Positions 4,252 to 46,772 of a DNA stretch of 64,000 nt are shown here, piece after piece. The DNA is taken from NCBI GenBank assembly GCA_963727765.1, contig CAVSGZ010000007.1, positions 82,826 through 146,825 on the forward strand. The letters run 5' to 3'. Below the pieces are notes generated by a model. It was not told where the DNA came from, did not search any database, and saw only the letters and a list, made by a program, of their open reading frames with translations. Numbering within the stretch: position 1 is the stretch's first letter; each line of letters starts with the position of its first letter. Position numbers and translations under genes: made by a program. The DNA comes from an uncultured Acidobacteriota bacterium. Its GTDB lineage: Bacteria; Acidobacteriota; Vicinamibacteria; Vicinamibacterales; Fen-181.

Positions 4252-4276
4252 GTGGGAGCCCGACCGGTCTCCACGT

Positions 4277-5602: not shown

Positions 5603-5645
5603 GTGTCGGGCGGCGGAGTTGGAGAGGTGTTGACAGGCGGTCACT

Positions 5646-8416: not shown

Positions 8417-8501
8417 AGGCTCGACAGGTGACCACTGAGGGACGCGTGACGGCCGTGCCAGACCCGGGCGCTTGTGCCCCAATTCCGGAGGATCGCGAGA
8501 C

Positions 8502-27801: not shown

Positions 27802-28455
27802 ATGTCACAGCAGCGCGTGGAGACCGTTCGTGCCATCGAGGCGTGCGGCGTGGTGGCGGTTATTCGGATGCGCGAGACCGGAAGGCTCCGGGCCGTCGTG
27901 GATGCGCTCGGTGAGGGTGGCGTTCGGGCGATCGAAGTGACGATGACCGTGCCCGGCGCGATCGATCTGATCGGGCAGCTGGCGCCGACGCTGCCCAGGG
28001 GATTCATCCTGGGCGCCGGGACGATCCTCGACGCCGAGACGGCGCGACTGGCCATCCTCGCCGGCGCGCAGTTCATCGTCGGCCCGGTGTTCAGGCCGGA
28101 AGTCATCGCGATGTGCCACCAGCACGACATTGCGGCCATGCCGGGCTGCTTCACCCCCACCGAAATCCTCTCGGCCTGGGAGGCGGGCGCCGATGTCGTG
28201 AAGGTCTTCCCCGCCATGGCCCTCGGCCCCGGGTTCTTCAAGGATGTGCGCGGGCCGCTGCCGCAGGTGAAACTGATGCCGACCGGCGGGGTGTCGCTCG
28301 ACAACGCGGGCGACTGGATCGCCGCGGGTGCCGTGGCGGTCGGCGTCGGCACGGCGCTGCTCGACGCGGCGGCGATCGCGGCCGGCAACTACGCCGTGAT
28401 TACGGCGAACGCGAAGCGGATCGCCGGAAGCGTTGCGGCAGCCCGCGCAAAGTGA
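27802..28455 (+). CDS. eda: KDPG / 4-hydroxy-2-oxoglutarate aldolase
   Basis: VVAVIR, IEVT, GAGTILD, VKVFPA and MPTGGV motifs of class I KDPG aldolases. 217 aa. Confidence 0.9.
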   Translation: MSQQRVETVRAIEACGVVAVIRMRETGRLRAVVDALGEGGVRAIEVTMTVPGAIDLIGQLAPTLPRGFILGAGTILDAETARLAILAGAQFIVGPVFRPEVIAMCHQHDIAAMPGCFTPTEILSAWEAGADVVKVFPAMALGPGFFKDVRGPLPQVKLMPTGGVSLDNAGDWIAAGAVAVGVGTALLDAAAIAAGNYAVITANAKRIAGSVAAARAK

Positions 28456-28469
28456 CGAAGGGGACCTCG

Positions 28470-29498: not shown

Positions 29499-30871
29499 GG
29501 ATCGACTCGAAGGTGAGGCCAGCCGTGCTGGCCGCGAAGATCGACCGGCTCTGGGACTTGTCGGCGGCGAAGATCAGGGCCATCGAACGCCGTCACGGGT
29601 CGTCCAGAGAGACCCTCGTGCACACCGTCGATGGCCGCTACACCTCCCGCGGCTGGACGGAGTGGACGCTCGGCTTCCGGCACGGATCGGCGCTGCTCCA
29701 GTTCGACGCGACCGGCGACGAGCGGTTCCTCGATCTCGGACGGCGCCGCACGCTCGAGTCGATGGGCCCGCACCTCACGGACACCGGGGTCCACGACCAC
29801 GGCTTTACGATCGTCAGCACCTACGGCAATCTGCTGCGCCTGGCGCGCGAAGGGCGATTCGAGCATGACGCGTGGGAGCGGCGCTGCTACGAGACGGCGC
29901 TCGTCTGCTCGGCCGCCGTCCAGGCGCGGCGGTGGACGGCGCTCGGTGAGGGCGAGGGCTTCATTCACTCGTTCAACGGGCCGCAGTCGCTCTTTGTCGA
30001 TACGGTCCGCACGCTCCGGTCGCTCGCGCTCGGCCATCGCCTCGGGCACGTGCTGCTCGAAGAGGGCGGCCGGCGCGTATCGCTGCTCGACCGGCTCCTG
30101 ATGCACGCGCGATCGACGGCCCGGTTCCTCGTGTCGGATGGCCGCGGGCGCGACATCTACGCGGCGCGCGGGCGGGTGTCTCACGAGGCTATCTTCAATG
30201 TCACGGATCGCAGTTTCAGGTGCCTGAGCACGCAGCAGGGCTACTCCCCGTTCAGCACGTGGATGCGCGGCCTCGCCTGGGCGATGTGCGGCTTCGCCGA
30301 GCAGCTCGAGTTCATGACCACGGTGAGCGACCAGGAGATCGCCTCCGCGGGCGGGCGCCGGGCGACCGCCGCGTTCATGAAGCGGGCCGCAACCGCGGCG
30401 TGCGACTACTACCTTGCGAACACGCCGACCGACGGCGTCCCGTACTGGGACACCGGTGCGCCGGGTCTCCACCGCCTTGGCGACTATCTCGCGAAGCCCG
30501 CGGATCCGTTCAACCCGTACGAGCCGGTGGACAGCTCGGCGGCGGCAATCGCGGCGCAGGGTCTCCTTCGCCTCGGCCACTACCTCCGGCGGGACGAACC
30601 GGCGCGTGCGCGTCGGTACTGGCAGGCGGGGCTGACCGTCATGCGCACGCTCCTGGACGAGCCGTATCTCGGCGTCGACCGTCGCCACGAAGGCCTGCTC
30701 CTGCACTCGGTGTATCACCGGCCCAATGGCTGGGACGCCGTCCCGCCGGGCCGGACGGTGCCGTGCGGCGAGTCCAGCCTGTGGGGCGACTACCACATCC
30801 GCGAGGCGGCCCTCTACCTGCAGCGCGTCATCCGGCGCGAGCCGTACCTGACTTTCTGGGGACCCGCATGA
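29495..30871 (+). CDS. GH88-like unsaturated glucuronyl hydrolase family protein
   Basis: 458 aa, (alpha/alpha)6-like. DHGF, WMRGLAWAMCGF, DGVPYWD, VDSSAAAIAAQGLLRL and ESSLWGDYHIREAL resemble GH88/GH105 motifs. ATGA overlap with kdgK. Confidence 0.7.
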   Translation: MRIDSKVRPAVLAAKIDRLWDLSAAKIRAIERRHGSSRETLVHTVDGRYTSRGWTEWTLGFRHGSALLQFDATGDERFLDLGRRRTLESMGPHLTDTGVHDHGFTIVSTYGNLLRLAREGRFEHDAWERRCYETALVCSAAVQARRWTALGEGEGFIHSFNGPQSLFVDTVRTLRSLALGHRLGHVLLEEGGRRVSLLDRLLMHARSTARFLVSDGRGRDIYAARGRVSHEAIFNVTDRSFRCLSTQQGYSPFSTWMRGLAWAMCGFAEQLEFMTTVSDQEIASAGGRRATAAFMKRAATAACDYYLANTPTDGVPYWDTGAPGLHRLGDYLAKPADPFNPYEPVDSSAAAIAAQGLLRLGHYLRRDEPARARRYWQAGLTVMRTLLDEPYLGVDRRHEGLLLHSVYHRPNGWDAVPPGRTVPCGESSLWGDYHIREAALYLQRVIRREPYLTFWGPA

Positions 30872-31302
30872 CGATCATCGATCTCGCCGCCACTGAGGGA
30901 CGCCGCTTTCCCGCAGGACGCCGCACGAAGAACGTCATCGGCGGGCAAGCGCCGGCGCAGTCCGCTCATTTTGCAATGGGCGTGGTGACGCTCGACCCGG
31001 ACGGCGGGCAAGTGCCCTGGCACAGCCAGGAACAGGAAGAGGTGTATCTCATCGTCGAGGGCTCGGGCGAGATGTGCCTCGGCGGCGAGCGCGCAGTTCT
31101 CGGCGCGGGCCAGGCGGTTACGATTCCGCCCGGGGTCTTCCACCAGATCACCAATCTCGGACAGACGCCGCTGACGCTCGTCTACTGCTACGGCCCGGCC
31201 GGCGAGGTCGCGCACTGGCGGCAGGAGCTCGACGGCACGCTGCCGCGCGCCGGCGTCGACGCGCCGCCGCTGCCGGAGGGCGCTCGGCCGCAACGGGCGT
31301 AA
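30868..31302 (+). CDS. cupin-domain protein (KdgF-like role inferred from context)
   Basis: ATG 30868 overlaps the upstream stop (ATGA). Cupin_2 core: VPWHSQEQEEVYLIVEGSGEM...GQAVTIPPGVFHQITNLG. Confidence 0.7.
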   Translation: MTIIDLAATEGRRFPAGRRTKNVIGGQAPAQSAHFAMGVVTLDPDGGQVPWHSQEQEEVYLIVEGSGEMCLGGERAVLGAGQAVTIPPGVFHQITNLGQTPLTLVYCYGPAGEVAHWRQELDGTLPRAGVDAPPLPEGARPQRA

Positions 31303-31319
31303 GCGAGGGGGGACACGAC

Positions 31320-32471
31320 GTGACCACCTGGCGCATCGGCGTCATCATGAACGGCGTCACCGGCAGGATGGGCGCCAACCAGCATCTCCTGCGCTCGATC
31401 GATGCCATCCGCCGCGACGGCGGCATTGGTCTGCCCGACGGCAGCGTGATCGTGCCCACCCCAATTCTTGTCGGCCGCAACCCCGCGAAGCTCGAGGCGC
31501 TGGCTGCCCGTTCGGGAGGGCCGCCGTGGACCACCGATCTCGACACGGCGCTGGCCGACCCGGATTACGCTGTCTACTTCGACGCGCAGACCACCGACCG
31601 GCGCGCGGCCGCTGTCCGGCGCGCGATTGCCGCAGGAAAGCACGTCTACTGCGAGAAGCCCGCCGCGGCGACGCTCGCCGAGGCCCTCGACCTCTACCGA
31701 CTCGCCCGCGACGCGGGCGTCAAGCACGGCGTGGTTCAGGACAAGCTCTGGCTGCCGGGCATCATCGCCCTGAGGCGACTGTGCGCGAGCGGGTTTTTCG
31801 GGCGCATCCTGTCGGTCCGCGGCGAGTTCGGTTACTGGGTGTTCGAGGGAGACAGCATCCCCGCGCAGCGCCCGTCGTGGAACTACCGCGCCGAGGACGG
31901 CGGCGGGATCATCGCCGACATGTTCCCCCATTGGCGCTACCTGCTCGACGAAGTCTTCGGCCGGGTCACTGCCGTCTCGTGCCTCGGCGCCATGCACGTC
32001 GGCCGACGCTGGGACGAGGCCGGCCGGCCCTACGACTGCACCGCCGACGATGCGGCCTACGCGACGTTTGAACTCGAGGGCGGGATCATCGCCCAGTTCA
32101 ACTCGTCGTGGTGCGTCCGCGTTCGCCGCGATGACCTGCTGACCATCCAGGTGGATGGCACGAAGGGTTCGGCGGTGGCCGGCCTGCGAAACTGCTGGGT
32201 GCAACCCGCCGCTTCCACTCCGCGGCCCGTGTGGAATCCCGATGTCGCGACGCAGGGAGACTACCGCGCCGACTGGCAGCGGCTGCCCGAAGTCGAGGGC
32301 CTCGGGAACGCTTTCCGGGTTCAGTGGGAGCTGTTCCTGCGGCACGTCGCATGCGGCGATCCGTTCACCTGGGACCTGCTCGCGGGTGCGAGGGGTGTGC
32401 AACTGGCCGAGTTGGGGACCGAGTCCTGGCGAACGAGAAGCTGGGTGGCGGTGCCGCCGCTCAATCCGTGA
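31320..32471 (+). CDS. Gfo/Idh/MocA-family NAD(P)-dependent oxidoreductase
   Basis: GTG 31320 lies after GAGGGGGGA. Rossmann motif IGVIMNGVTGRMG and EKP motif VYCEKPAA. 383 aa. Confidence 0.8.
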   Translation: MTTWRIGVIMNGVTGRMGANQHLLRSIDAIRRDGGIGLPDGSVIVPTPILVGRNPAKLEALAARSGGPPWTTDLDTALADPDYAVYFDAQTTDRRAAAVRRAIAAGKHVYCEKPAAATLAEALDLYRLARDAGVKHGVVQDKLWLPGIIALRRLCASGFFGRILSVRGEFGYWVFEGDSIPAQRPSWNYRAEDGGGIIADMFPHWRYLLDEVFGRVTAVSCLGAMHVGRRWDEAGRPYDCTADDAAYATFELEGGIIAQFNSSWCVRVRRDDLLTIQVDGTKGSAVAGLRNCWVQPAASTPRPVWNPDVATQGDYRADWQRLPEVEGLGNAFRVQWELFLRHVACGDPFTWDLLAGARGVQLAELGTESWRTRSWVAVPPLNP

Positions 32472-32478
32472 GGAGACG

Positions 32479-33255
32479 ATGACACAGGCACGCGTGGCGC
32501 TTGTCACCGGGGGCACGCGCGGGATTGGCCTCGCCGTCGCCGAATGCCTGGCGCGCGAGCAGTTCGATCTGGCGGTGTGCGGGCGGCGGGAGGAGGAGGC
32601 TGTTGCCGGCGCCCTCCAGTCGCTGAGGCGCCAGGGCAGAGACGTTGTCTACTGCCGCTGCGACGTCGCAGACCGCGCGGCGCGCGAGGCGCTCGTGCAG
32701 TCGGTTCGCGACCGGTTCGGCCGCCTCCACGTCCTGGTCAACAACGCCGGGATCGCGCCGCCCGAGCGTCGCGATCTCCTCGAGGCCTCCGAGGACAGCT
32801 TCGAGGCCGTGCTGCGCACGAACCTCCAGGGGCCGTATTTCCTCACCCAGGCCGTGGCGCGGTGGATGATCGATCAGCGGCGCGCTGACGCGTCCTTTCG
32901 CGGCTGCATCGTCAACGTCTCGTCGATTTCGGCGACGACCGCGTCGGTGAACCGCGGCGAGTACTGCGTCGCCAAGGCGGGCCTGGCCATGGCGACCCAA
33001 CTCTGGGCGGCCAGGCTCGGCGAATGGAACATTCCGGTCTACGACGTCCGACCCGGCATCGTACGGACGGACATGAGCGCTGCAGCCGAGGCCAAGTACG
33101 ACCGCCTGATCGCCGACGGCCTGCTCGTCCAGCCGCGCTGGGGGCTGCCCGATGATGTTGGGCGCGCCGTAGCGATGCTCGCGCGGGGCGACCTGGCGTA
33201 CTCGACGGGCCAGGTGCTCATGATCGATGGCGGCTTCAACGTGCGCCGGCTGTGA
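32479..33255 (+). CDS. short-chain dehydrogenase/reductase (KduD/FabG-like)
   Basis: ATG 32479 lies after GAGGAG. TGGTRGIG, NNAG and YCVAKAG (YxxxK) motifs. Confidence 0.85.
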   Translation: MTQARVALVTGGTRGIGLAVAECLAREQFDLAVCGRREEEAVAGALQSLRRQGRDVVYCRCDVADRAAREALVQSVRDRFGRLHVLVNNAGIAPPERRDLLEASEDSFEAVLRTNLQGPYFLTQAVARWMIDQRRADASFRGCIVNVSSISATTASVNRGEYCVAKAGLAMATQLWAARLGEWNIPVYDVRPGIVRTDMSAAAEAKYDRLIADGLLVQPRWGLPDDVGRAVAMLARGDLAYSTGQVLMIDGGFNVRRL

Positions 33256-34369
33256 CGTCGCGCGGGGGATAAACGCACTCGCGCGCCTCGTCCGCGAACG
33301 CGCGCAGGAGGGCGTCGTCGGCCTCGAAGAAATGGTCGGACGGCGCCAGGATGTAGCCGCCCCCGCCTCCAGCATCTTCGAACAACCGGCGCACGGCCTG
33401 TCGGGTTTGGTTTTCCGGGCAGCCGACGAAATCGTTGAACTGGTCGAAGCCGCCGATCATGCACACGCGGGCGCCCACGAGCCGTTTCGCCTCTGCCATC
33501 CTCGTGTCTCCACCCATAGCCGGCGGAGTGAACGTCTCCATCGCGTCGGGGCCCATCTCCGCAATCCGCTCGAGAAATGGCATCATCCCCCCGCACGTGT
33601 GGTAGACGATGCGCAGGCCGGACTGGTGGGCGGCCGCGATGAGCGGGGCGTCGAACGGGGCGACGAAGCGGTCGAAGATCGGCGGCGAGATGACCGTGGA
33701 CGACGCGTCGCCGCCGCCGAGTTCGACAAGGTCGAACGCCGAGCCGCGGGCCGACTGGAGGAAGCGGAGCTTCGGGCGCTGGAGGAATGCCAGCAGCGCG
33801 CCGACCCAGCCTGCGTCGTTGAAGGTGGCGAGGATCAGCGGTTCAATTCCGAACAACACCGCCGCGTCCTGCCAGCAGCCGGGTTGACCGTAGACTGGGA
33901 ATCCCGGCACCGCGCCACGGACGATCCCACGATCGCCGAACTCGGCGGCGGCCGCGGCGACGGCCGCGACATCGCAGATGGGCTCCAGGTCGATCGCGGT
34001 GAGGACATCGAGGTCGCGCTTGTCTTTGAGCAGGCGCTCCCGCACCCAGGCCGTCCGGCCGTCGTCCTGCAGCAGGGTCGTGAGCGTGCCGCGCGGTGTC
34101 ACGAAGCGGTAGCGTGTCGTCTTGTAGTCGGGGTCGGCGACCTCCTCCGCCTCGAGGCGCCAGGCGGGGCCGCCGGCCTCGATCGGGCGGCGCAGCGGCG
34201 TCGTCCAGTGGATCGCATCGAGGCCGTAGCGGTCGAAGAACTCGATCTCGGTGGCGCAACCGGCCTGCCGGAGGAACGACGGCATCAGGTGGTGCGTCGT
34301 GGCCGGCAGACGGTCGGGGACGCCGCGATCGAGGGCGGTGAGCAGTCGCCGGCGAGACGTCCAGCTCAT
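33236..34369 (-). CDS. uroporphyrinogen-decarboxylase (URO-D) superfamily protein, paralogue 1
   Basis: 377 aa. TIM-barrel URO-D/MtaA-like pattern (...LVELGGGDASSTVISPPIFDRFV...VYHTCGGMMPFLERIAEMGPDAMETF...GGFDQ...). Its 3' end overlaps the convergent SDR gene by 20 nt. Confidence 0.65.
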   Translation of the reverse strand: MSWTSRRRLLTALDRGVPDRLPATTHHLMPSFLRQAGCATEIEFFDRYGLDAIHWTTPLRRPIEAGGPAWRLEAEEVADPDYKTTRYRFVTPRGTLTTLLQDDGRTAWVRERLLKDKRDLDVLTAIDLEPICDVAAVAAAAAEFGDRGIVRGAVPGFPVYGQPGCWQDAAVLFGIEPLILATFNDAGWVGALLAFLQRPKLRFLQSARGSAFDLVELGGGDASSTVISPPIFDRFVAPFDAPLIAAAHQSGLRIVYHTCGGMMPFLERIAEMGPDAMETFTPPAMGGDTRMAEAKRLVGARVCMIGGFDQFNDFVGCPENQTRQAVRRLFEDAGGGGGYILAPSDHFFEADDALLRAFADEARECVYPPRDVTAGAR

Positions 34370-36669
34370 CCCATCACCTGGCCGGCCATCCGCATCATGT
34401 AGTCGTGGTCGATGTAGGGGTCGTCGTCTTTGTGCCGCTCCATCAGCGCGAGCCGCGTGGTGAGGAGGGCGTGAAGGTTGCGGCCGTGAATCAGCGGCGA
34501 CTCGCCGAGGTCGGTCGTCGCCATGAACTCCACTGGGCCGTCGATAAGCGATAGCAGGCGCCGCGTGTTCTCCATCTCGCGCTCGATCGCGTCGGCGAGG
34601 CGGGCGCAGTGACGGGCCTTCGACGTGTCATCGGCAGCCTCGAGCCACCCGTAGACGCTCGCCACCCAGGCGGCGAGGTTGCGCTGCGTTTCGAGCCAGC
34701 AGCGGAGCGCCTTCAAGCGCGCCAGTTGGTCGGTGATGACGCCCGGCTTGCCGAGTTCCGCGGCCGCGCCGGAGAGCGGCTCGAGACGCGCGATCGCCGC
34801 GTCGAGCGGAGCGAAGACGCGGGCATCCATCCGCTCCACGTCCCTGCTCGCCTGCGCCGGCTCGATCAGGCGGAACAGCACGTCGCGGCTCAGGTCCACG
34901 TTGTTCGGGTTGTGCGGGGTGGTGCACATGAAGCGCTCGTAGTACGCGCGCTCCTCCGCGGGGATCGCCTCGATGTTCGGCACCAGCGGTCGCGCCCAGA
35001 GGCGGTACCACGCAAAGCCGATCGTCGAGTAGAGCGTGCAGATGTTCGGAAACGAGAGGATCGCGTCCTCGGCGAGGCGCCACGCATCGATGAGCGCCGG
35101 GGCATGTTCGTCGCCAGCCCAGGCGCGCGCTAGGCGGTCGATTTCGGCGTCGATGTCCATCCCGGGATCGAACTCGAAACGGCGGAGGATCTCGTGGTTG
35201 ACGTTGAACGGCACGATTTCGGGCGGACACGTGCCGCCAATCTGGGCGAGCTCCCGCACGCCGTTTCGATGGAGCAGGGCGAGGCGCGTGTGGGTCAGCG
35301 TCGGGTACGGCACGCCCAAGAGCGGCGCGAACATCTGGTGCGGGCCGACCGCGGTGTAGAAGTGAGCGGCGGACGACCGACCGCGAAGATCCGCCATCAG
35401 GGTCCGCTCACGCTCGTCGAACGCCTGCTGAAAAATCGTGCCGCTGTTGATCGAATGCGAATCGGGGTAGCGCGGGTGCGTGTAGGGCATCTGCCAGCCC
35501 CGAGCCACCAGCGACGTCGTCTCCACCTCCACGCCGTCGCCGAGACCCTTCCAGAGCGTGTCGTGCTCGCCCATGAACGACTCGAGGCGAGTGATCACGC
35601 GGAAGCCGGGCGACACGGTGCGGGCTGCGTCGCGGAGCGTGCGGAAGAAGAGGAGCGCGTGCTCGCCGGCGACGCGGGCGATGGCGTCGTGGTCGCGCCA
35701 TTCGCGGACCATGTAGGGGCCGCCGTTGCGCCCGACGTAGAGCGACGTCGTGTGCTCGAAGCCCGAGCCGCTGTCGTTGGTCCAGATGGTCAGGAACCCG
35801 AGATCCGGGACTTCCGCGAGCAGCTTCGTGAGCATCTCCGCGTAGTGGTCGCGGACCAGCGGGTGGGCCAGTGTCATCGTGTAGCGCGGCTTGAACGAGC
35901 GGAAGGGATGGTCCACGCGGGCGCCGCGGAGCATCGGGTACCTGGCGAAGAACTCCTCCGGCACCGACCGCGGTTCGAAGCAGAGCAGGCCCGGGATGAG
36001 GCCGTACTTGCGGGCCAGGGCGGCGTTTCGCTTGAGGAACGCCAGGTTCGCCGACAGGTAGTAGGGAGGATAGAGCCCGCAGTTCAGCGAGGAGTCGATG
36101 AACTGATCGAGCGCGGGGCAATAGGTATAGAACATCGGGTACACCTCGCCCTTGGGTCCTGTCTCGAGGCTCATGGGATAGGCGAGGCCGTTCACCTCGA
36201 TGTGGGTGAAGCCTGACGTGGCCAGGCGCCGCACGTAGGTATCTCGATTGAGGCCGTGCTGGATGCGGGCCTCTTGCGTCAGGAAGATGTCGTAGCACGA
36301 GCGGTTCCAGCTGAACGTCGGTTGGACCAGCAGCGCGCCGCCGGCAGGAAGCGGTTGTTCGCCGAGGACGTCAAAGACGTACATGGCGGCACCGAACAGG
36401 CCGGGAGCGGCTGTCGACTCGAGCAGGCCGGAGCCGTCCTCGCCGAACTCGGCCCGCACCGGCGCCGGGCCGTCGGAGGCGGCGCCCTGCGGCGCGCCCG
36501 CGACCCTGATGCGGAAAACTCCGGATTCGGCTCTGCCGGCTGTGGAGCCGACGGAGACCGGAGCACCGCTTCTCCGCTGCAGGTCCTCCGCCACCGTGCG
36601 GCACACGAGCGGGCAGCCCTCGTCGAGCGTGATCTCGCGAATGCGAGCGAGTGCTTCTGCGACTGTCAT
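34366..36669 (-). CDS. 767-aa conserved-looking protein of unknown function (possible TIM-barrel glycan-active enzyme)
   Basis: Long uninterrupted ORF with balanced composition. Segments GFTHIEVNGL, LLCFEPRSVPEEFF and LTIWTNDSGSGFEH suggest beta/alpha-barrel strands ending in acidic residues. No signal peptide. Confidence 0.7.
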   Translation of the reverse strand: MTVAEALARIREITLDEGCPLVCRTVAEDLQRRSGAPVSVGSTAGRAESGVFRIRVAGAPQGAASDGPAPVRAEFGEDGSGLLESTAAPGLFGAAMYVFDVLGEQPLPAGGALLVQPTFSWNRSCYDIFLTQEARIQHGLNRDTYVRRLATSGFTHIEVNGLAYPMSLETGPKGEVYPMFYTYCPALDQFIDSSLNCGLYPPYYLSANLAFLKRNAALARKYGLIPGLLCFEPRSVPEEFFARYPMLRGARVDHPFRSFKPRYTMTLAHPLVRDHYAEMLTKLLAEVPDLGFLTIWTNDSGSGFEHTTSLYVGRNGGPYMVREWRDHDAIARVAGEHALLFFRTLRDAARTVSPGFRVITRLESFMGEHDTLWKGLGDGVEVETTSLVARGWQMPYTHPRYPDSHSINSGTIFQQAFDERERTLMADLRGRSSAAHFYTAVGPHQMFAPLLGVPYPTLTHTRLALLHRNGVRELAQIGGTCPPEIVPFNVNHEILRRFEFDPGMDIDAEIDRLARAWAGDEHAPALIDAWRLAEDAILSFPNICTLYSTIGFAWYRLWARPLVPNIEAIPAEERAYYERFMCTTPHNPNNVDLSRDVLFRLIEPAQASRDVERMDARVFAPLDAAIARLEPLSGAAAELGKPGVITDQLARLKALRCWLETQRNLAAWVASVYGWLEAADDTSKARHCARLADAIEREMENTRRLLSLIDGPVEFMATTDLGESPLIHGRNLHALLTTRLALMERHKDDDPYIDHDYMMRMAGQVMG

Positions 36670-36687: not shown

Positions 36688-36716
36688 CAGATAGCGCAGG
36701 GCTTCAGCCCTGCGCC
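36688..36716 (+). repeat. REP-like palindromic element, copy C
   Basis: CAGATAGCGCAGGGCTTCAGCCCTGCGCC, with stem GCGCAGGGC/GCCCTGCGC and loop TTCA. Nearly identical to the two copies at 45310-45387, in opposite genomic orientation. Contains the stop codon (36704-36706) of the PLP-enzyme gene. Confidence 0.75.
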
Positions 36717-37993
36717 TGGACCGCGACCTCCCTGATCAGCCTGTCCACTTCCGCGTCGGTGTTGCAGACGTGGAAGGACGCGCGAACGGCGTCGAGCCCC
36801 GCTTCGGTCACGCTGCGGACGCGGAGGCGTCGCCCGGTCAGCGCACCTGCCACCTGCCGGTTGTCGCGCCCGGGAATCCTGAACGTCACCATGGCCGATC
36901 GGGCCTCGGGCTCGGCCGGCGAGAGCAGGTCCACTGACTTCTGCGCCTGGAGCGCGCTGCGGAACCGCTCGGCCATCGCCTGGTTGTGCTGCCAGATCCT
37001 CGGCAGGCCGAGGGCCGCGACGAAGTCCATCGCCGATTCGATGCCGTAGATGAGCGCGGCGTTCTGTGTCCCGTACTCAAACCGCTGAGCCTCGGTTCGA
37101 AGCGTCAGCTTCCGTTCCGCCAGCGACGTCGCCTGGTCCGAGTAGGCGCCGAGGACGACCGACCCCACCTCCGGCAGGCGGTCCTTCCGGACGTACAGAA
37201 TGCCCGTCCGTTTCGGGCCCATCAGGAACTTGTGGCAGCTTGCGGCGTAGCAGTGTGCGCCGGTTGCCGCGATGTCGATCGGAAACTGCGCCAGCGACTG
37301 CGCGCCATCCAGGGCGAACCACACGCGCCGCTCGGCGGCGAGGCGGCCGATCTCGGCCACCGGCAGGATCTGCCCGGTCGTGCACGTCACGTGACTGACG
37401 AAGATCAGACGCGTGCGAGGCGTCAGCAGCGCGCGAATGCGTTCCACGCTGCCCGTCCGGGTGCCGAGGTCGGGCTCGAATGTCCGCACGACGATGCCGG
37501 CGGTGCTGATCTTGTGGAGCAGCGGGATGACCAGCGCCGGGTGTTCGTGCGTCGAGGTGATGACCTCGTCGCCAGCCTCGAGCGGCAGGCCGTTGAGGAC
37601 GATGTTGATGCCCTCGGTGGCCGTGCTCACCAGCGCGATTTCTCCTGCCGAGCACGAGGGCCCCAGCAGCGACGCGCACTTGCCGCGAATCCGCGTCCAG
37701 TCACTCTCGCTGTGGCCCGGGCTTGGAGACCGTTCCTCCCTGTCCATCTCCGACTTGACCCGGTCGCTGACCGCGCGCGGCGAGGCACCAAGTCCTGCGG
37801 TGTTGAAATACGCGTAGTCAGCCGGGAGTTGGAACTGCTGCCGAAGATCGCGCCACGGGTCTGACGTCGCCTGGAGGCGGTGCGCGACGTCACTCGCAAC
37901 AGTGCCGGCCGCATCGGGCGGGAGCATCAAGGCGCCGGCGGCAGCACCGAGGCCCGCCAGGAAGCCGCGTCGTTCGATCATCGTGTCCGCCAT
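36704..37993 (-). CDS. class V aminotransferase-fold PLP enzyme with twin-arginine (Tat) signal
   Basis: ATG 37993 within track ORF 36704..38284. MADTMIERRGFLAGLGAAAGALMLPP (RR motif). PLP-lysine motif ASCHKFLMGPKRTG. Cysteine-desulfurase/epimerase-like fold. Confidence 0.8.
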   Translation of the reverse strand: MADTMIERRGFLAGLGAAAGALMLPPDAAGTVASDVAHRLQATSDPWRDLRQQFQLPADYAYFNTAGLGASPRAVSDRVKSEMDREERSPSPGHSESDWTRIRGKCASLLGPSCSAGEIALVSTATEGINIVLNGLPLEAGDEVITSTHEHPALVIPLLHKISTAGIVVRTFEPDLGTRTGSVERIRALLTPRTRLIFVSHVTCTTGQILPVAEIGRLAAERRVWFALDGAQSLAQFPIDIAATGAHCYAASCHKFLMGPKRTGILYVRKDRLPEVGSVVLGAYSDQATSLAERKLTLRTEAQRFEYGTQNAALIYGIESAMDFVAALGLPRIWQHNQAMAERFRSALQAQKSVDLLSPAEPEARSAMVTFRIPGRDNRQVAGALTGRRLRVRSVTEAGLDAVRASFHVCNTDAEVDRLIREVAVQAQG

Positions 37994-39582
37994 CACTGAA
38001 GTGCGATCGTGAAGCCGGCGGTTCCGTCCACGTGAGTCTCGAAGTCGGCGTACCGGCTGGCCTCGACCACGGACTGGGCGAACGGCACATCGCGCGCGCC
38101 ATGCCGCACAGCGCAAACGTCTGAGCCGGCCGGGAGCAGCACGTGGAGCCGCACGTCGGCCGCGGCCGCCTCGACCTCGATATCGATCCGGTCGCCGGCG
38201 TGCCGGAACGAGTAGCCGATCCCCCGCCCCGACGCCGCGTAGCGGACCGACGCCTCCGCTTCGGAGAGGCCGGCGGCCACCCATCGCGGCGCCAGCGTCA
38301 CCGCGTCAAAACCGCAGCCGTCGTCCACGATCCCCGCGAGGCCTTCGACCAGCGCCCAGAGCATGGCGCTCGATCCCCACCCGTCGGTGGGCAGCGCCTC
38401 CGGGCTCGTGCTGGTCTCGACGCTGGCCGCGGCCCCGTCGGGGAAATACCACAGGTAGGTCTCGCCCTTCGGCGAGATGAGCCGGTGGTACTGCTCGAGG
38501 ATCTCGATGCCGTACGCTTCGAACCCGTGCTCGAAAGCCGCGCGGGCCAGCTCGCCGCCGACGAGCGGCATGATCCCGCCATTGCAGTAGGCCCCGGCGA
38601 CCAGGCGCTCGTCGCCGAAGATGCCGTCGGGAAACGGCGGGTCGATGGCAAACCACTCCGCGAACGCGCCGGTGGACTGGCGCCGGCGAAGGTACTCGCG
38701 GAGGATCGACGCCGCCTGCTCGTGGTCGGCCACCCCGCGGTTAACGTCCATCGGGTTGCTCAGGCTGAGCTGCGACGACTCGTCCACGCCCTCGATGGTG
38801 ACCGGCGTCAGCTTCACGAAGTGCGTGTAGAAGCGACCGTTCCAGCACGCCCGATTGAGGTTGGTCCGAATCTCGACCGCACGGTCTTCCCAATACGCGC
38901 CGCGCGCGGCGTCACCGAGGCGTCGGCAAAGCCTCGCCAACAGGCGATACGCCTCGTAGTAGCCGCTGTTGTCGCCGTGCATCAGGCCCCAGTACGTGTC
39001 GTCGGTAATCTGGAACTGCAGCCAGTCGTGCCGTCCTGCCGTGTACGCGAAATCCCAGGTGTCGATGGTGTAGGCCCGCTTCACGAGGCCGTGCGTCTCG
39101 TCCCAGTACCACGGGTGGTTCCGGATGTAGGCCATCGCCCGCTCGAGGCTGGGCAGCAGACCGCGAATCCAGGCGTCGTCGCCCGACGCCTGCCAGGCGA
39201 GGTAGGCGCCCTTGACGAAGCGATACTCGACGTCGGCCTCGACCGGGACGCGCACGTACTTCGTCCAGTTCTCGCGTTCGCTCGGCGGCTTCTCGGGAAA
39301 CGTCGTGTAGTAATCGAATACGCGACCCGTCGCGGCCTGCGTGTCGGCGAAGTGCTGCACGGCGCTCGTGAGGTCGGGCTCGAAGTACCGGAACCCGCGC
39401 ATCATGTCGCTGTGGTCGCGGATCCAGATCGACTTGGCGTCGGGCGTGCGGTAGCCGCGGATCCGCCGGCCGTCGATCGTCAGGTCCAGCCGGTCGTGCT
39501 CCAGGAACGCCCGGACCGCGGGGTAGAGGTCGTCGAACGCCGGCCGCCCGGTTCTGATCGAGACCTCACTTGCTTGGCGCAT
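37993..39582 (-). CDS. (alpha/alpha)6-barrel glycoside-hydrolase-like protein (family not assignable by eye)
   Basis: 529 aa, no signal peptide. ...AYCNGGIMPLVGGELARAAFEHG... and ...TDGWGSSAMLWALVEGLAGI... are typical of six-hairpin glycosidases. Its stop shares one base with the downstream start. Confidence 0.6.
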   Translation of the reverse strand: MRQASEVSIRTGRPAFDDLYPAVRAFLEHDRLDLTIDGRRIRGYRTPDAKSIWIRDHSDMMRGFRYFEPDLTSAVQHFADTQAATGRVFDYYTTFPEKPPSERENWTKYVRVPVEADVEYRFVKGAYLAWQASGDDAWIRGLLPSLERAMAYIRNHPWYWDETHGLVKRAYTIDTWDFAYTAGRHDWLQFQITDDTYWGLMHGDNSGYYEAYRLLARLCRRLGDAARGAYWEDRAVEIRTNLNRACWNGRFYTHFVKLTPVTIEGVDESSQLSLSNPMDVNRGVADHEQAASILREYLRRRQSTGAFAEWFAIDPPFPDGIFGDERLVAGAYCNGGIMPLVGGELARAAFEHGFEAYGIEILEQYHRLISPKGETYLWYFPDGAAASVETSTSPEALPTDGWGSSAMLWALVEGLAGIVDDGCGFDAVTLAPRWVAAGLSEAEASVRYAASGRGIGYSFRHAGDRIDIEVEAAAADVRLHVLLPAGSDVCAVRHGARDVPFAQSVVEASRYADFETHVDGTAGFTIALQ

Positions 39583-41986
39583 CGATGGTCACCGTGTCGC
39601 GGAAATACCGGACCTTGTCCACGCCGGCCGTGTCGGTCGAGGCGTCGAACGGGAGCCCGTGGAACGACAGCCCGTTCTGGAACAGCACGCGATCGCCATA
39701 CTGGGCGCGGGTCATGTTGACGATGCTGTAGGTGAGCTGGCGGCCTTCTTCCGAGAGAAAGACCAGGTCGCCGTCGGTCAGCACTGGCCCGTAGCCGATC
39801 TTGCCCTTCTCGAACAGGTAGCGCGGGCGCCGGTAGTCGCGCGCGATGTCGAGGCGGAGATCCTGCTTCGCGCCGATGATGATCCGTCGCCCGCCGGCCT
39901 CGATCTGGACCGCCAGGCCCGACGCGGTCGGCACGGTCTCGACCAGCGAAACCCGCCGGGCAAGCTCGGCCGGCGCCACGTCCTTGGCATGCGGGATGAG
40001 CACCGTCACCATTCCCTCGGTCTGGGTCGGCTCGAAGTGCCGCGCCACCGCCTGGTAGATCGCCAACTCGTCCTGGCCGTGGCGCTTCTGCGGTTCCACA
40101 CCTTCCATTCGGAAGTGGCTCTGTGGGAACACGATCAGCAGGCGCTTGGCATCCGGGAACGCCGTGGCTCCGACGACGTCGTACGCCGTGTCGTACCAGT
40201 GGTCCCCGCGCGCGACGATCTGGCGTGTGTGCCAGAGATTGGCCAGCGTGAAGTACTCCGTGGCCCTCGACTTGAACACGTCGAAGACGACGAACATCTC
40301 GGGGTCCTTCAGGTAGATGACCACGCGGTCGGCGTCGTAGCCCCAGCCATCATCGAGCAATCGTGTCCGCGCGTAGTCGAACTCCGGCTGCTGCAGGAAG
40401 TCCACCTTGCGCGTGCGCACGGGCCGGTACGAGCCCGCGTCGCGCATGAACTCGAGCAGCGGCTGCTGCGGGATGGGCCCCTTCTGGCTGTAGCGTTCCT
40501 CGTTCGCCTTCTGGCCCATCCAGATCTTCTCGGGGCGCACGCACAGGCGGTTGTGGAAGTAGTCCTGGCGATAGGCACCGTACGGGCCGCTCGGCATGTA
40601 GTCGCGGTACCCGCCGTCGTGGAGCAGCAGCGACCCGCCGCTCATCAGCATGGGGATGCTGTTCTCGTCGGCGTGGCCGTGCGTCATCTTCTCTTCCTCG
40701 ACCGGGATGCTGTCGCGGAGGTAGTCGCGGAAGTTCATCCCGCCGTCGCCCTCATCGCGATAGGTCAGCAGCAGGTAGGTGGAGTCGGGCTTCCAGCCGT
40801 TTCGAAAGACCACCTTCTTGCCCTGCACGTCCTCCATGACTTCGCCGCTCAGGCTCACGGGCGCGCGTGGGGCGATGTCGTCGCGGCCCCAGCGATACGC
40901 GTCGAGCAGGAAGCACCCGAGGCCGGCGCTGGTGGGCCTGGTCAGATCGACGTACCGCGCGGCGATGCGCTGGGCCGCCCACTTCAGCTCGGGGTCGTTC
41001 AGCCGGGCGGCCGCCGTTTCGAAGAACACCAGGAAGTGCTGCCAGTTCTGGGACCAGGCCGCGTCGCCGAAGTCAGGCACCATGTCGCCCGGCGACATCA
41101 GGTTGAGGAAGTACTGGGCGTAGTAGAACACCTCCGGGGTTCGGAAGAGGTCCCCGGTCCTGTCGAGCGCGTCCGCATAGCCGAGCAGCGAGTAGAGCCA
41201 GACGCCGTGGTAGATGGTGGCGTCCTCGATTTCCCAGTGGCCCCAGTTGTCGTCGCCGAGCGCGCGGCGCTGCAGTTCCCAGCGTGCGGCGCGGGGATGC
41301 TTCGGCATCGCGCGAACGGCCCACGCCAGCGTCTCCGCGCGCAGCATCGCGCGGTTCATGGCGCCCCACTCCGAGGTCTGCAGCAGGTAGTCGATGCTGT
41401 GGCCGGCCAGCGCCTCGATCTTCGCGGCCTCGGCCGGCGTGAGCTGACCGAGCCGGTGAAGCGTGTCGTAGGCCCGGAGGTAGCGCATGACGACGAAGAA
41501 GTCGGGGAGCGCGGGCACGCCGTTCGCGTAGTCGGGCCGCGCCTTCGCCGCCAACTCGGGGTACTGGGACCGGTAGTCGCCGTACGTGAGCAGCACGTGT
41601 TTGGTGCGCTCGGCGTAGACGGGGTTGCGCTCCAGCTCGTAGAGCGTCGAATAGATGGCGGCCAGGTCGATCAGGTCCCCCGGCCCCCGGTAGCCGAACG
41701 GGCTGGCCGGGTCGAACGTCTGCCGCCAGCGAGCGAGGTTTTCCTCGCGATGGTCCCAGGCGTAGTCAGCCGATGCGCGGGCGTAGGCCAGGTAGTCGGC
41801 GCGCGTGACGGCGATGCCCGGCGCCACGGCCGTTCGTGCTGCCGCGGCCTGTTTGCCCTTCGCCTGGGGCTTCTGCCCCGTTACCGATCCGACCGACGCT
41901 GCCGATTGTGCATCGAGGCTCCGGAGCGCGGCACCGGCCGCGACCACGAGAACGCCCGCCGCAATGAGTGTGCTGACGCCGCGCAT
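39566..41986 (-). CDS. secreted heparinase II/III-like (polysaccharide-lyase-like) protein
   Basis: Signal peptide MRGVSTLIAAGVLVVAAGAALRSLDAQS. An alpha/alpha toroid-like N-half, then THGHADENSIPMLMSGGSLLLHDGGY, which resembles the heparinase II/III C-domain motif. Confidence 0.6.
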   Translation of the reverse strand: MRGVSTLIAAGVLVVAAGAALRSLDAQSAASVGSVTGQKPQAKGKQAAAARTAVAPGIAVTRADYLAYARASADYAWDHREENLARWRQTFDPASPFGYRGPGDLIDLAAIYSTLYELERNPVYAERTKHVLLTYGDYRSQYPELAAKARPDYANGVPALPDFFVVMRYLRAYDTLHRLGQLTPAEAAKIEALAGHSIDYLLQTSEWGAMNRAMLRAETLAWAVRAMPKHPRAARWELQRRALGDDNWGHWEIEDATIYHGVWLYSLLGYADALDRTGDLFRTPEVFYYAQYFLNLMSPGDMVPDFGDAAWSQNWQHFLVFFETAAARLNDPELKWAAQRIAARYVDLTRPTSAGLGCFLLDAYRWGRDDIAPRAPVSLSGEVMEDVQGKKVVFRNGWKPDSTYLLLTYRDEGDGGMNFRDYLRDSIPVEEEKMTHGHADENSIPMLMSGGSLLLHDGGYRDYMPSGPYGAYRQDYFHNRLCVRPEKIWMGQKANEERYSQKGPIPQQPLLEFMRDAGSYRPVRTRKVDFLQQPEFDYARTRLLDDGWGYDADRVVIYLKDPEMFVVFDVFKSRATEYFTLANLWHTRQIVARGDHWYDTAYDVVGATAFPDAKRLLIVFPQSHFRMEGVEPQKRHGQDELAIYQAVARHFEPTQTEGMVTVLIPHAKDVAPAELARRVSLVETVPTASGLAVQIEAGGRRIIIGAKQDLRLDIARDYRRPRYLFEKGKIGYGPVLTDGDLVFLSEEGRQLTYSIVNMTRAQYGDRVLFQNGLSFHGLPFDASTDTAGVDKVRYFRDTVTIDAPSK

Positions 41987-46767: not shown

Positions 46768-46772
46768 CGGCG

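What the first reader, a model, noticed from the sequence alone, without database searches (positions are those of the whole stretch)
34366..36669. 767-aa protein with no recognisable family inside the glycan operon
This is a long, compositionally normal ORF in the middle of CAZyme genes.

It has strand-like segments ending in Glu/Asp (FTHIEVN, LLCFEPRS, TIWTNDSGSGFEH), reminiscent of a (beta/alpha)8 glycosidase, followed by a long helical C-terminal half.

It is a candidate founding member of a new GH or PL family.
Basis: inference. Interest (0 to 1): 0.55.

Follow-up and report, generated by a model that had tools for sequence, protein, structure and literature searches.

The report
Unclassified glycosidase-like enzyme in lyase operon
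This gene is real and belongs to a large, never-described protein family; its predicted shape matches known sugar-cleaving enzymes, and it sits in a widely conserved operon for breaking down an acidic polysaccharide, so it is a good but unproven candidate for a new glycoside hydrolase family.

Summary
The ORF at 34366-36669 (minus strand, 767 aa) is a real gene. Its third-codon-position GC is 0.88, and homologues at 50-92% identity occur in at least 584 species-level genomes across many phyla.

It matches no Pfam, NCBIfam or PDB sequence, even with family profiles at E<=10. Every homologue found is labelled "hypothetical".

The AlphaFold2 model (pTM 0.88) has three parts: an N-terminal alpha/beta domain, a clean (beta/alpha)8 barrel and a C-terminal helical bundle. 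Foldseek matches GH138, GH67, GH89, GH20 and GH84 enzymes over the full length at 9-12% identity.

Asp299, at the end of barrel strand 4, is the only acidic residue invariant across the superfamily. R248, R251 and D253 are nearly invariant. The GH20 (D-E) and GH84 (D-D) catalytic pairs are absent.

The operon and its neighbour encode:
- a secreted heparinase-II/III-fold lyase-like protein
- a Tat-exported PLP enzyme
- an (alpha/alpha)6 GH94-like protein
- GH38
- two MtaA-like proteins
- an SSF transporter
- a converging Eda-KdgK-GH88-oxidoreductase operon

Best reading: a cytoplasmic exo-glycosidase of an undescribed family that acts on lyase-derived oligosaccharides. Substrate, stereochemistry and formal CAZy status remain untested.

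The parts
34366..36669 (-). Target gene: 767-aa protein of an undescribed family, with no signal peptide
   Evidence: ORF and translation. GC3 is 0.88. No Pfam/NCBIfam/PDB sequence hit. Large homologue family.
36325..36669 (-). N-terminal alpha/beta domain (aa 1-115), GH20b/GH67N/NAGLU_N-like
   Evidence: AF2 secondary structure with pLDDT ~90-97. Two of 40 family members give weak Glyco_hydro_20b hits, best E 3.3e-4. Full-length Foldseek matches to GH138/67/89/20/84.
35230..36318 (-). (beta/alpha)8 barrel (aa ~118-480). Strands: b1 121-125, b2 156-158, b3 225-231, b4 292-296, b5 357-361, b6 380-384, b7 435-439, b8 473-477
   Evidence: DSSP on the AF2 model. Conserved residues cluster at the C-terminal strand ends.
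34369..35202 (-). C-terminal all-helical domain (aa 490-767), with conserved loops 546-553 and 582-594
   Evidence: AF2 model. Conservation of E698, N491 and the PHNPNNVD loop.
35773..35775 (-). Codon of Asp299 (end of strand b4): the only invariant acidic residue and the proposed catalytic acid
   Evidence: 40/40 in A2 and 72/72 in the non-redundant superfamily alignment. Codon position verified. The catalytic role is inferred.
35911..35928 (-). R248-G-A-R251-V-D253 motif in the b3-a3 loop: proposed anion (carboxylate or phosphate) binding site and second-carboxylate candidate
   Evidence: R248 71/72, R251 70/72, D253 69/72. Codons verified. The role is inferred.
35968..35976 (-). E232-P233-R234 at the end of strand b3
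   Evidence: P233 72/72, R234 65/72, E232 62/72.
35566..35568 (-). Codon of Glu368 (b5-a5 loop): candidate second catalytic carboxylate
   Evidence: E 62/72 plus D 2/72.
33236..34369 (-). URO-D/MtaA-like protein (377 aa), translationally coupled to the target by an ATGA overlap
   Evidence: Pfam URO-D 1.4e-12. Weak MtaA/CmuA NCBIfam hits. Invariant Y-H257-T-C259-G-G motif. ATGA overlap. Directly downstream of the target in 26/83 loci.
36704..37993 (-). Class-V PLP enzyme (PvdN/SufS-like) with a twin-arginine signal peptide
   Evidence: Aminotran_5 1.3e-53. PvdN model matched at 130 bits over nearly its full length, below its 650-bit cutoff. RRGFLAGLG N-terminus. The RR-type pattern was matched in 17/29 homologues, and most of the other 12 (mostly Bacteroidota) start with a similar N-R-N-x-F-L sequence. 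Adjacent to the target in 44/83 loci.
37993..39582 (-). 529-aa protein of an undescribed family, (alpha/alpha)6 GH94/GH116-like; the most constant partner of the target
   Evidence: No Pfam/NCBIfam hit. Profile vs PDB: exo-beta-D-arabinanase 8ic6 E 2.2e-4, GH94 chitobiose phosphorylase 8bou E 3.5e-3. Present in 54/83 loci.
39566..41986 (-). 806-aa secreted protein of an undescribed family with a heparinase II/III-type polysaccharide-lyase fold
   Evidence: No Pfam/NCBIfam hit. Sec-type signal peptide. AF2 model has pTM 0.63. Foldseek: PL39 6jp4 E 7e-14, PL17, PL12 heparinase III, PL15, PL8 xanthan lyase. Present in 26/83 loci.
41990..43000 (-). Second URO-D/MtaA-like protein (336 aa)
   Evidence: Pfam URO-D 8.7e-15. 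Present in 16/83 loci.
43121..44251 (-). GFO/IDH/MocA oxidoreductase
   Evidence: Pfam and NCBIfam.
44248..47322 (-). GH38 alpha-mannosidase. This is the maximal ORF; the true start is probably near 46.8 kb.
   Evidence: Glyco_hydro_38N 4.8e-56, starting at aa 190 of the ORF, plus the GH38 middle and C-terminal domains. Present in 23/83 loci.
46773..48800 (-). 675-aa protein with weak GH15/trehalase-like similarity
   Evidence: NCBIfam trehalase_H1 2e-7, far below its cutoff. Present in 17/83 loci.
49829..51937 (-). Sodium:solute symporter (SSF), probable oligosaccharide importer
   Evidence: Pfam SSF and NCBIfam. Present in 25/83 loci at 55-63% identity.
27802..33255 (+). Converging operon: Eda (27802-28455), KDG kinase (~28460-29498), GH88-like unsaturated glucuronyl hydrolase (29495-30871), GFO/IDH/MocA (31074-32471), SDR (~32480-33255)
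   Evidence: Pfam. NCBIfam KDG/KDGal kinase and Eda models. PDB 1vd5 unsaturated glucuronyl hydrolase E 9.6e-13 over aa 43-446.

Best explanation
The gene encodes a cytoplasmic exo-acting glycoside hydrolase of a sequence family that has not been described. It has the three-domain build of GH20, GH67, GH84, GH89 and GH138 enzymes: an N-terminal alpha/beta domain, a (beta/alpha)8 catalytic barrel and a C-terminal helical bundle.

Proposed pathway (inferred from context):
1. A secreted heparinase-II/III-fold lyase (39566-41986) cuts an acidic, uronate- and mannose-containing polysaccharide, for example a xanthan-like bacterial exopolysaccharide.
2. A Tat-exported PLP enzyme may trim a substituent in the periplasm.
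3. The SSF symporter imports the oligosaccharides.
4. In the cytoplasm, the GH88-like hydrolase removes the unsaturated uronate, which enters the SDR / KDG kinase / Eda route.
5. GH38, the (alpha/alpha)6 protein and this enzyme remove the remaining sugars one by one.

Proposed catalysis (inferred): Asp299 at the C-terminal end of strand b4 acts as general acid. A second carboxylate (Asp253, Glu368 or Glu232) acts as base or nucleophile. Arg234, Arg248 and Arg251 hold an anionic group of the substrate, most likely a uronate carboxylate.

Shown: gene reality, family size, absence from family libraries, predicted fold, conservation pattern and gene neighbourhood. Inferred: hydrolase activity, residue roles, substrate class and cellular location (from the absence of a signal peptide).
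For: Fold:
- AF2 gives pTM 0.88 with a regular eight-fold beta/alpha pattern.
- There are 84 Foldseek PDB hits at E<=1e-3. The top 50 are all glycoside hydrolases aligned over ~750-860 columns: GH138 6hze E 5e-13 (TM 0.55), GH67 1h41/1mqq, GH89 4xwh/2vca, GH20 2epn/5a6b, GH84 2vvn.
- Weak sequence echoes support this: Glyco_hydro_20b in 2/40 members (3.3e-4) and the NAGLU barrel in 1/40 (0.016).

Active-site pattern:
- Conserved residues sit at the C-terminal ends of the barrel strands.
- D299 is 72/72, R248 71/72, R251 70/72, D253 69/72, N315 and Y311 71/72.

Location: no signal peptide, and the N-terminal domain folds from residue 1 with pLDDT >90.

Context in the window:
- lyase-fold neighbour with a signal peptide
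- GH88-like, KDG kinase, Eda and SDR genes
- GH38
- (alpha/alpha)6 GH94-like partner
- SSF transporter

The u529-PLP-target core is kept across phyla.

Distant family members (22-40% identity) again sit next to Pfam Hepar_II_III or DSE-like_N proteins, sugar transporters, GFO oxidoreductases and GH95.

A lyase + GH88 + GH38 + GH94 enzyme set is the documented xanthan pathway (PMC10881899).
Against: - No activity data exist for any family member.
- Sequence identity to all structural matches is 9-12%, and TM-scores are only 0.4-0.55.
- The most conserved loops (aa 169-182, 252-261, 298-324, 582-594) are exactly the low-confidence parts of the model, so the active-site geometry is unknown.
- No residue-level superposition on known catalytic residues could be made.
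- Only one acidic residue is strictly invariant, which also fits a phosphorylase or another chemistry.
- The operon holds enzymes not expected in a simple glycan pathway: two MtaA-like proteins and a Tat-PLP enzyme here; OYE, FAD and acyl-CoA dehydrogenase genes in Bacteroidota locus L079; CN_hydrolase and creatininase next to distant members.
- The substrate is not identified.
Confidence: 0.55

Rival explanations
1. Same fold and pathway position, but the enzyme is a glycoside phosphorylase (or transglycosylase) rather than a hydrolase. Asp299 is the single catalytic acid, and the Arg234/Arg248/Arg251 cluster binds inorganic phosphate, which replaces water as the nucleophile.
For: - Only one acidic residue is invariant (D299 72/72), while three arginines are 90-99% conserved.
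- The protein is cytoplasmic, as phosphorylases are.
- Its most constant partner resembles GH94 phosphorylases.
Against: - None of the top 50 listed fold relatives (GH138, 67, 89, 20, 84) is described as a phosphorylase.
- D253 (96%), E368 (89%) and E232 (86%) are conserved enough to supply a second carboxylate; the shortfalls may be alignment error.
- The arginines are equally explained by a uronate substrate, which the lyase/GH88/KDG context predicts.
Confidence: 0.13
2. It is a glycosidase that already belongs to an existing CAZy family which has no Pfam or NCBIfam model and no solved structure. On this reading it is a new member, not a new family.
For: - CAZy/dbCAN could not be searched here.
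- Some CAZy families lack Pfam models and structures.
- The fold is a common GH one.
Against: - Profile searches against all PDB sequences (copy of 2026) at E<=10 returned no CAZyme.
- Pfam 2025 and NCBIfam 2026 gave nothing.
- Over 200 listed homologues, including distant ones, all carry either 'hypothetical protein' or no name.
- Almost all carriers are uncultured MAGs, which makes prior biochemical characterisation unlikely.
Confidence: 0.15
3. It is a non-glycosidic enzyme built on the same scaffold, for example an amidase/deacylase, an isomerase/epimerase or an eliminase. It would act on a substituted sugar or sugar-amino-acid conjugate rather than on a glycosidic bond.
For: - Distant members are flanked by CN_hydrolase, Amidohydro_2, creatininase, PIG-L, and DegT or class-V aminotransferases.
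- The close subfamily is fused into an operon with a Tat-PLP enzyme and MtaA-like proteins.
- In L079 the gene is followed by a xylose-isomerase-like TIM barrel and by OYE and FAD enzymes.
- The canonical GH20 and GH84 catalytic pairs are absent.
Against: - Every significant full-length fold match in the top 50 is a glycoside hydrolase.
- To my knowledge the N-domain + barrel + helical bundle combination is known only from glycosidases.
- The neighbouring amidase-type genes can themselves account for deacylation steps.
Confidence: 0.12
4. It is a catalytically inactive scaffold or sugar-binding protein.
For: No canonical catalytic pair could be mapped.
Against: - There is very strong conservation of polar residues at the strand ends: 30 positions are >=90% identical across <62%-identity sequences from many phyla.
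- Sequences from different phyla keep 50-60% identity.
- The gene is embedded in a catabolic operon.
Confidence: 0.03

Closest known systems
GH138 (BT0997, alpha-galacturonidase acting on rhamnogalacturonan II; PDB 6hze/6hzf)
   Same: It is the best Foldseek match: E 5e-13, TM 0.55 normalised to the query, ~836-860 aligned columns. Both have a (beta/alpha)8 catalytic barrel with flanking domains. Both occur in loci for acidic glycans; the uronate specificity of BT0997 is from my own knowledge of the 2019 JBC paper, which could not be read here.
   Different: Identity is 9-10%. HMMER profiles of the family do not retrieve 6hze even at E<=10. BT0997 is longer, with a different domain count (856 aa).
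GH67 alpha-glucuronidases (1h41, 1mqq, 1l8n)
   Same: The same three-domain order: N alpha/beta, barrel, C-terminal helical. Foldseek E 7e-12 to 1.5e-10. The target's conserved arginines would suit the anionic uronate substrate of these enzymes (inference).
   Different: No Pfam Glyco_hydro_67N/M/C hit in any of 40 members. Identity is 11-12%. Catalytic residue equivalence was not established.
GH89 alpha-N-acetylglucosaminidase (human NAGLU 4xwh; CpGH89 2vca/2vc9)
   Same: The same three-domain build. Foldseek E 1.3e-11 for 4xwh. One distant member gives a weak NAGLU barrel hit, E 0.016. Like NAGLU, the family is associated with heparinase-type enzymes.
   Different: The hit is far below the Pfam threshold and occurs in only 1 of 40 members. 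Identity is 8-11%.
GH20 / GH84 beta-hexosaminidases (GcnA 2epn, GH20C 5a6b, BtGH84 2vvn)
   Same: Same fold and domain order. There are weak Glyco_hydro_20b hits to the N-domain in 2/40 members.
   Different: The adjacent D-E (GH20) or D-D (GH84) pair after strand b4 is absent. The motif here is N298-D299-S300, where 298 is variable (N 23/40) and 300 is Ser in 38/40. Substrate-assisted hexosaminidase chemistry is therefore unlikely.
Lyase-initiated xanthan-type utilisation loci (Bacillus sp. GL1; Ruminococcaceae R.UCG13: PL8, GH88, GH38, GH94)
   Same: The window holds a lyase-fold protein, a GH88-like gene, GH38 and a GH94-like (alpha/alpha)6 protein, plus KDG kinase and Eda. This is the same enzyme logic described in PMC10881899.
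   Different: The lyase-like and (alpha/alpha)6 proteins belong to undescribed families. The locus adds the target, two MtaA-like proteins and a Tat-PLP enzyme that have no counterpart in the xanthan loci. The substrate is unknown.

Membership tests
GH138 | Sequence similarity to BT0997-type proteins detectable by profile methods | tested here: not met
   Profiles A1 and A2 searched against all PDB sequences (which include 6hze/6hzf) at E<=10 did not return them. Only fold similarity was found.
GH138 | (beta/alpha)8 catalytic barrel with accessory domains | tested here: met
   AF2 model. Foldseek top hit 6hze, TM 0.55.
GH67 | Match to Pfam Glyco_hydro_67N/67M/67C | tested here: not met
   No hit at E<=10 in the target or in any of 40 family members.
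GH89 | Match to Pfam NAGLU_N/NAGLU/NAGLU_C above the gathering score | tested here: not met
   Only one distant member (P0206) hits NAGLU, at E 0.016 and 14.6 bits against a cutoff of 25.5. The target itself gives none.
GH20 | Adjacent Asp-Glu catalytic pair after strand b4, and a Pfam Glyco_hydro_20 match | tested here: not met
   The motif after b4 is N-D299-S, with residue 300 Ser in 38/40. There is no Glyco_hydro_20 hit; only weak Glyco_hydro_20b (N-domain) hits in 2/40 members.
GH84 | Adjacent Asp-Asp pair after strand b4, and a Pfam NAGidase match | tested here: not met
   Position 298 is variable (N 23, Q 6, G 3, H 3 of 40) and D299 is followed by Ser. There is no Pfam hit.
Any existing CAZy GH family | Score above threshold against CAZy/dbCAN family HMMs | not testable with these tools
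   No dbCAN or CAZy library is available. The proxies were all negative: Pfam, NCBIfam and all PDB sequences.
Glycoside hydrolase (functional class) | Two suitably spaced carboxylates at the barrel's C-terminal face, and measurable glycosidase activity | tested here: inconclusive
   D299 is invariant, and D253, E368 and E232 are 86-96% conserved at strand ends or loops. Their spatial distances could not be measured: no model coordinates were available and those loops have low pLDDT. Activity is not testable here.

The most novel reading that the evidence does not exclude
The protein founds a new CAZy glycoside hydrolase family with a specificity not covered by GH67, GH89 or GH138. It would act inside a cross-phylum operon that combines at least three undescribed CAZyme-like families with a Tat-exported PLP enzyme and MtaA-like zinc proteins. 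On this reading the operon encodes a so-far unknown route for degrading a substituted (amino-, acyl- or methyl-decorated) acidic polysaccharide that is common in soils and sediments.
Probability: 0.45. Interest if true: 0.65.

Novelty: new variant of a known kind. Interest (0 to 1): 0.5.

Why it matters
If the activity is confirmed, it would define a new glycoside hydrolase family present in hundreds of mostly uncultured species: Acidobacteriota, Gemmatimonadota, Bacteroidota, KSB1, Armatimonadota and the PVC group.

It would also anchor the annotation of a conserved operon in which most large proteins are currently 'hypothetical'. That operon probably handles an abundant acidic exopolysaccharide in soil and sediment carbon turnover, so its substrate and chemistry are a directly testable question.

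It would not overturn any concept. New GH families with this fold are found regularly.

Tried and rejected
- **Paralogy with the other two large unknown ORFs in the operon (806 aa, 529 aa).** BLASTP shows no similarity.
- **Sequence link to solved structures.** phmmer with the target and with a distant member, and hmmsearch with two family profiles, gave only noise: OpuC, trypanin, PARP1, designed helical bundles.
- **Pfam scan of 40 diverse members at E<=10.** Only sub-threshold Glyco_hydro_20b hits (2 members) and a NAGLU hit (1 member).
- **Names or accessions of distant cluster members.** All are hypothetical or unnamed.
- **Genome scan with the diverse alignment A2.** It failed because no stretch was conserved enough. 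A1 was used instead.
- **Reading the GH138 structure paper to map catalytic residues.** It is not held in the library. Literature searches for a described family of this type returned nothing relevant.
- **Substrate-assisted hexosaminidase mechanism.** Rejected, because the D-E and D-D pairs are absent.
- **Polysaccharide lyase reading for the target.** Rejected as unlikely. All of its significant fold matches are GH barrels, while the lyase fold belongs to the neighbour at 39566-41986.
- **Mapping catalytic residues from the model.** Model coordinates and residue-level structural alignments were not available, so catalytic equivalences remain inferred.

Full report
**1. The observation**

The window is ~68% GC. 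It carries an ATG-initiated ORF on the minus strand at 34366-36669 that encodes 767 aa.

High-GC DNA produces many spurious long ORFs; 78 ORFs of >=100 aa overlap 24-46 kb. This one has the coding signature GC1/2/3 = 0.67/0.48/0.88, like its neighbours. Its stop codon overlaps the start of the next gene (ATGA).

Homologues are abundant:
- More than 1653 clusters at 90% identity; the listed best 120 are 59-92% identical and nearly all cover about the full length.
- 458 representatives at 50% identity with E<=1e-3, of which 120 score <=1e-30.
- Relatives in at least 584 GTDB species genomes.

The gene is real and under strong constraint.

**2. No known family by sequence**

- Pfam-A and NCBIfam gave zero hits at E<=10.
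- phmmer against all PDB sequences gave only noise.
- So did hmmsearch with a 49-sequence profile (A1) and a 40-sequence profile reaching 22% identity (A2).
- Scanning all 40 diverse members against Pfam at E<=10 gave only sub-threshold hints: Glyco_hydro_20b in two members (best 3.3e-4) and the NAGLU barrel in one (0.016).
- No homologue, close or distant, has a precomputed Pfam domain or any name except 'hypothetical protein'.

**3. Fold**

AlphaFold2 on A1 gave mean pLDDT 81 and pTM 0.88. The model has three parts:
- An alpha/beta domain at aa 1-115.
- A regular (beta/alpha)8 barrel, with strands at 121-125, 156-158, 225-231, 292-296, 357-361, 380-384, 435-439 and 473-477, each followed by a helix.
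- An all-helical domain at aa 490-767.

Foldseek against the PDB gave 84 hits at E<=1e-3. The top 50 are all glycoside hydrolases aligned over ~540-900 columns:

| Family | Example entries | Foldseek E | Note |
|---|---|---|---|
| GH138 | BT0997, 6hze | 5e-13 | TM 0.55 |
| GH67 alpha-glucuronidases | 1h41, 1mqq | ~1e-11 | |
| GH89 | NAGLU 4xwh; 2vca | 1.3e-11 (4xwh); 3.1e-8 (2vca) | |
| GH20 | GcnA 2epn; GH20C 5a6b | 2e-11 to 1e-9 | |
| GH84 | 2vvn | 1e-8 | |

Identity to all of them is 9-12%. These families share exactly this N-domain / barrel / helical-bundle order.

One caveat: the most conserved loops (169-182, 252-261, 298-324, 582-594) are the least confident parts of the model.

**4. 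Conservation and the likely active site**

In the close subfamily, invariant residues crowd the C-terminal ends of the barrel strands:
- b1: R123, Y126, D127
- b2: H156, E158, N160
- b3: E232, P233, R234
- b4: W296, N298, D299
- b5: R361, E363
- b6: E383
- b7: H436, Y438

I then aligned 72 sequences made non-redundant at 62% identity, spanning the whole superfamily:

| Residue | Conservation (of 72) |
|---|---|
| D299 | 72, the only invariant acid |
| R248 | 71 |
| N315, Y311 | 71 each |
| R251, N208, H275 | 70 each |
| D253, N160 | 69 each |
| Y177 | 68 |
| R234 | 65 |
| E232, D188 | 62 each |
| E368 | 62, plus 2 Asp |

The residues flanking D299 exclude the adjacent D-E (GH20) and D-D (GH84) pairs. 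Position 298 varies, and position 300 is Ser in 38/40.

My mechanistic reading is inference, not demonstration. D299 on b4 would be the general acid. D253, E368 or E232 would be the second carboxylate. The arginine trio would bind an anionic group of the substrate.

**5. Genomic context in the window**

The minus-strand operon, in transcription order:

| Gene | Coordinates | Evidence |
|---|---|---|
| SSF symporter | 49829-51937 | |
| Weak GH15-like 675-aa protein | 46773-48800 | |
| GH38 | 44248-47322 (maximal ORF) | |
| GFO/IDH/MocA oxidoreductase | 43121-44251 | |
| URO-D/MtaA-like | 41990-43000 | |
| 806-aa unknown | 39566-41986 | see below |
| 529-aa unknown | 37993-39582 | see below |
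| Class-V PLP enzyme | 36704-37993 | see below |
| Target | 34366-36669 | |
| URO-D/MtaA-like | 33236-34369 | |

- **The 806-aa protein** has a Sec-type signal peptide. Its AF2 model matches PL39, PL17, PL12 (heparinase III), PL15 and PL8 lyases at E 7e-14 to 5e-8.
- **The 529-aa protein** resembles (alpha/alpha)6 enzymes: 8ic6 at E 2.2e-4 and the GH94 entry 8bou at 3.5e-3.
- **The PLP enzyme** aligns over almost the whole length of the PvdN model, though well below its cutoff (130 vs 650 bits). It carries a twin-arginine signal; the RR-type pattern was matched in 17 of 29 homologues, and most of the rest (mostly Bacteroidota) begin with a similar N-R-N-x-F-L sequence.
- **The target, the 529-aa protein and the URO-D-like proteins** lack signal peptides.

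A plus-strand operon converges on this one:
- Eda (27802-28455)
- KDG kinase (to 29498)
- a GH88-like unsaturated glucuronyl hydrolase (29495-30871; PDB 1vd5, E 9.6e-13)
- a GFO oxidoreductase
- an SDR

This is the standard route for unsaturated uronates released after lyase action. It makes the lyase assignment of the 806-aa protein functionally coherent.

The combination lyase + GH88 + GH38 + GH94-like mirrors the documented xanthan pathways (PMC10881899).

**6. Context elsewhere**

I searched 83 loci carrying close homologues by tblastn, 81 of them from the 80 GTDB species genomes kept. Partners found within 10 kb:

| Partner | Loci (of 83) |
|---|---|
| 529-aa protein | 54 |
| PLP enzyme | 44 |
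| 806-aa protein | 26 |
| Downstream URO-D-like gene | 26 |
| SSF | 25 |
| GH38 | 23 |

Many of these loci are short contigs, so the counts are lower bounds. The core 529-aa / PLP / target arrangement is collinear in Acidobacteriota, Gemmatimonadota, Bacteroidota and several unclassified MAGs.

Ten contexts of distant members (22-40% identity) again show:
- Pfam Hepar_II_III_N/C proteins directly adjacent or nearby (P0163, P0240, P0425), and a DSE-like_N protein (P0206).
- SSF, ABC or MFS sugar transporters, GFO oxidoreductases, DegT aminotransferases and GH95.
- Amide hydrolases: CN_hydrolase, Amidohydro_2, creatininase and PIG-L.

The recurrent lyase link supports a role downstream of lyase-type depolymerisation. 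The amide-hydrolase and aminotransferase links suggest amino- or acyl-substituted sugars in the substrates.

**7. Comparison with known families, and membership**

The protein works like, and is built like, GH138, GH67 and GH89 enzymes. It fails every sequence-based membership test that could be run:
- No Pfam GH67, NAGLU, GH20 or GH84 match.
- No HMMER-detectable similarity to any PDB chain, including 6hze.
- No GH20 or GH84 catalytic pair.

CAZy/dbCAN itself could not be queried, so membership of a structure-less, Pfam-less CAZy family cannot be excluded. I put that at ~0.15.

**8. Rivals**

- A phosphorylase using the same scaffold fits 'one invariant acid plus conserved arginines' and the cytoplasmic location. 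But no listed fold relative is described as a phosphorylase, and a uronate explains the arginines equally well.
- A non-glycosidic enzyme, such as a deacylase or an eliminase on a decorated sugar, is suggested by the unusual partners. It is not supported by any fold match.
- An inactive scaffold is very unlikely given the conservation.

**9. Verdict**

This is a solid and moderately interesting lead. The enzyme class is familiar, but the sequence family is undescribed and widespread. It sits in a conserved operon where at least three other large proteins are equally unclassified.

Noticed in passing
window 39566-41986 (-): An 806-aa secreted protein with no Pfam or NCBIfam family. Its predicted fold matches heparinase II/III-type lyases (PL39, PL17, PL12, PL15, PL8). 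It has over 1278 homologues, all 'hypothetical' or unnamed among the 120 listed. It is itself a candidate new PL family.
   Followed up: partly
window 37993-39582 (-): A 529-aa protein with no family. It shows weak profile similarity to (alpha/alpha)6 enzymes (exo-beta-D-arabinanase 8ic6, GH94 8bou). It is the most constant neighbour of the target (54/83 loci).
   Followed up: partly
window 36704-37993 (-): A class-V PLP enzyme resembling the periplasmic pyoverdine-tailoring enzyme PvdN, with a twin-arginine signal (RRGFLAGLG). The RR-type pattern was matched in 17/29 homologues. An exported PLP enzyme inside a glycan operon is unusual and unexplained.
   Followed up: partly
window 33236-34369 (-) and 41990-43000 (-): Two URO-D/MtaA-CmuA-like proteins in the operon. 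The downstream one has an invariant Y-H-T-C-G-G motif that resembles the zinc HxC site of MtaA/MetE-type methyltransferases. No corrinoid protein was seen nearby. A role in removing methyl groups from sugars is pure speculation.
   Followed up: partly
window 36694-36715 (-): A perfect 9-bp GC-rich inverted repeat (GCGCAGGGC-TGAA-GCCCTGCGC), which RNAfold extends to a 10-bp stem, with the stop codon of the PLP gene in its loop. It lies 25 nt upstream of the target's ATG. The 66-nt region folds at -29.6 kcal/mol (z = -3.2). There is no T-run, so it is not a classic terminator; it may be a processing or stability element.
   Followed up: partly
window 27802-33255 (+): An operon of Eda, KDG kinase, a GH88-like unsaturated glucuronyl hydrolase (no Pfam hit, but PDB 1vd5 at E 1e-12), a GFO oxidoreductase and an SDR. 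It converges on the target operon, and the two 3' ends overlap by 20 bp (33236-33255).
   Followed up: partly
window 759-7544: A second small cluster: SSF symporter, argininosuccinate-lyase-like Lyase_1, ROK regulator and a 632-aa PIG-L/Mca-like deacetylase. The same families (Lyase_1, SSF, PIG-L) flank distant homologues of the target in other genomes (L084, L094).
   Followed up: no
L079 12284-19017 (Bacteroidota chromosome OW818688.1): Here the target homologue is followed by a xylose-isomerase-like TIM barrel, an OYE-type FMN oxidoreductase, an FAD_binding_2 flavoprotein, an SDR and an acyl-CoA-dehydrogenase-like protein, before GH38 and GFO. This is more redox chemistry than a plain glycan pathway needs.
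   Followed up: no
window 46773-48800 (-), 52204-54297 (+), 23179-24333 (+): Further sizeable ORFs with a coding signature but no Pfam family. The 675-aa one has only a weak GH15/trehalase-like NCBIfam hit, and it co-occurs with the target in 17/83 loci.
   Followed up: no
window 56412-58529 (+) and 8472-11420 (+): An acidobacterial VWFA-domain protein (TIGR03436) and a CarboxypepD_reg + OMP_b-brl_4 outer-membrane protein. Both fit an Acidobacteriota (Vicinamibacteria-like) origin, in line with the best homologues of the target.
   Followed up: no
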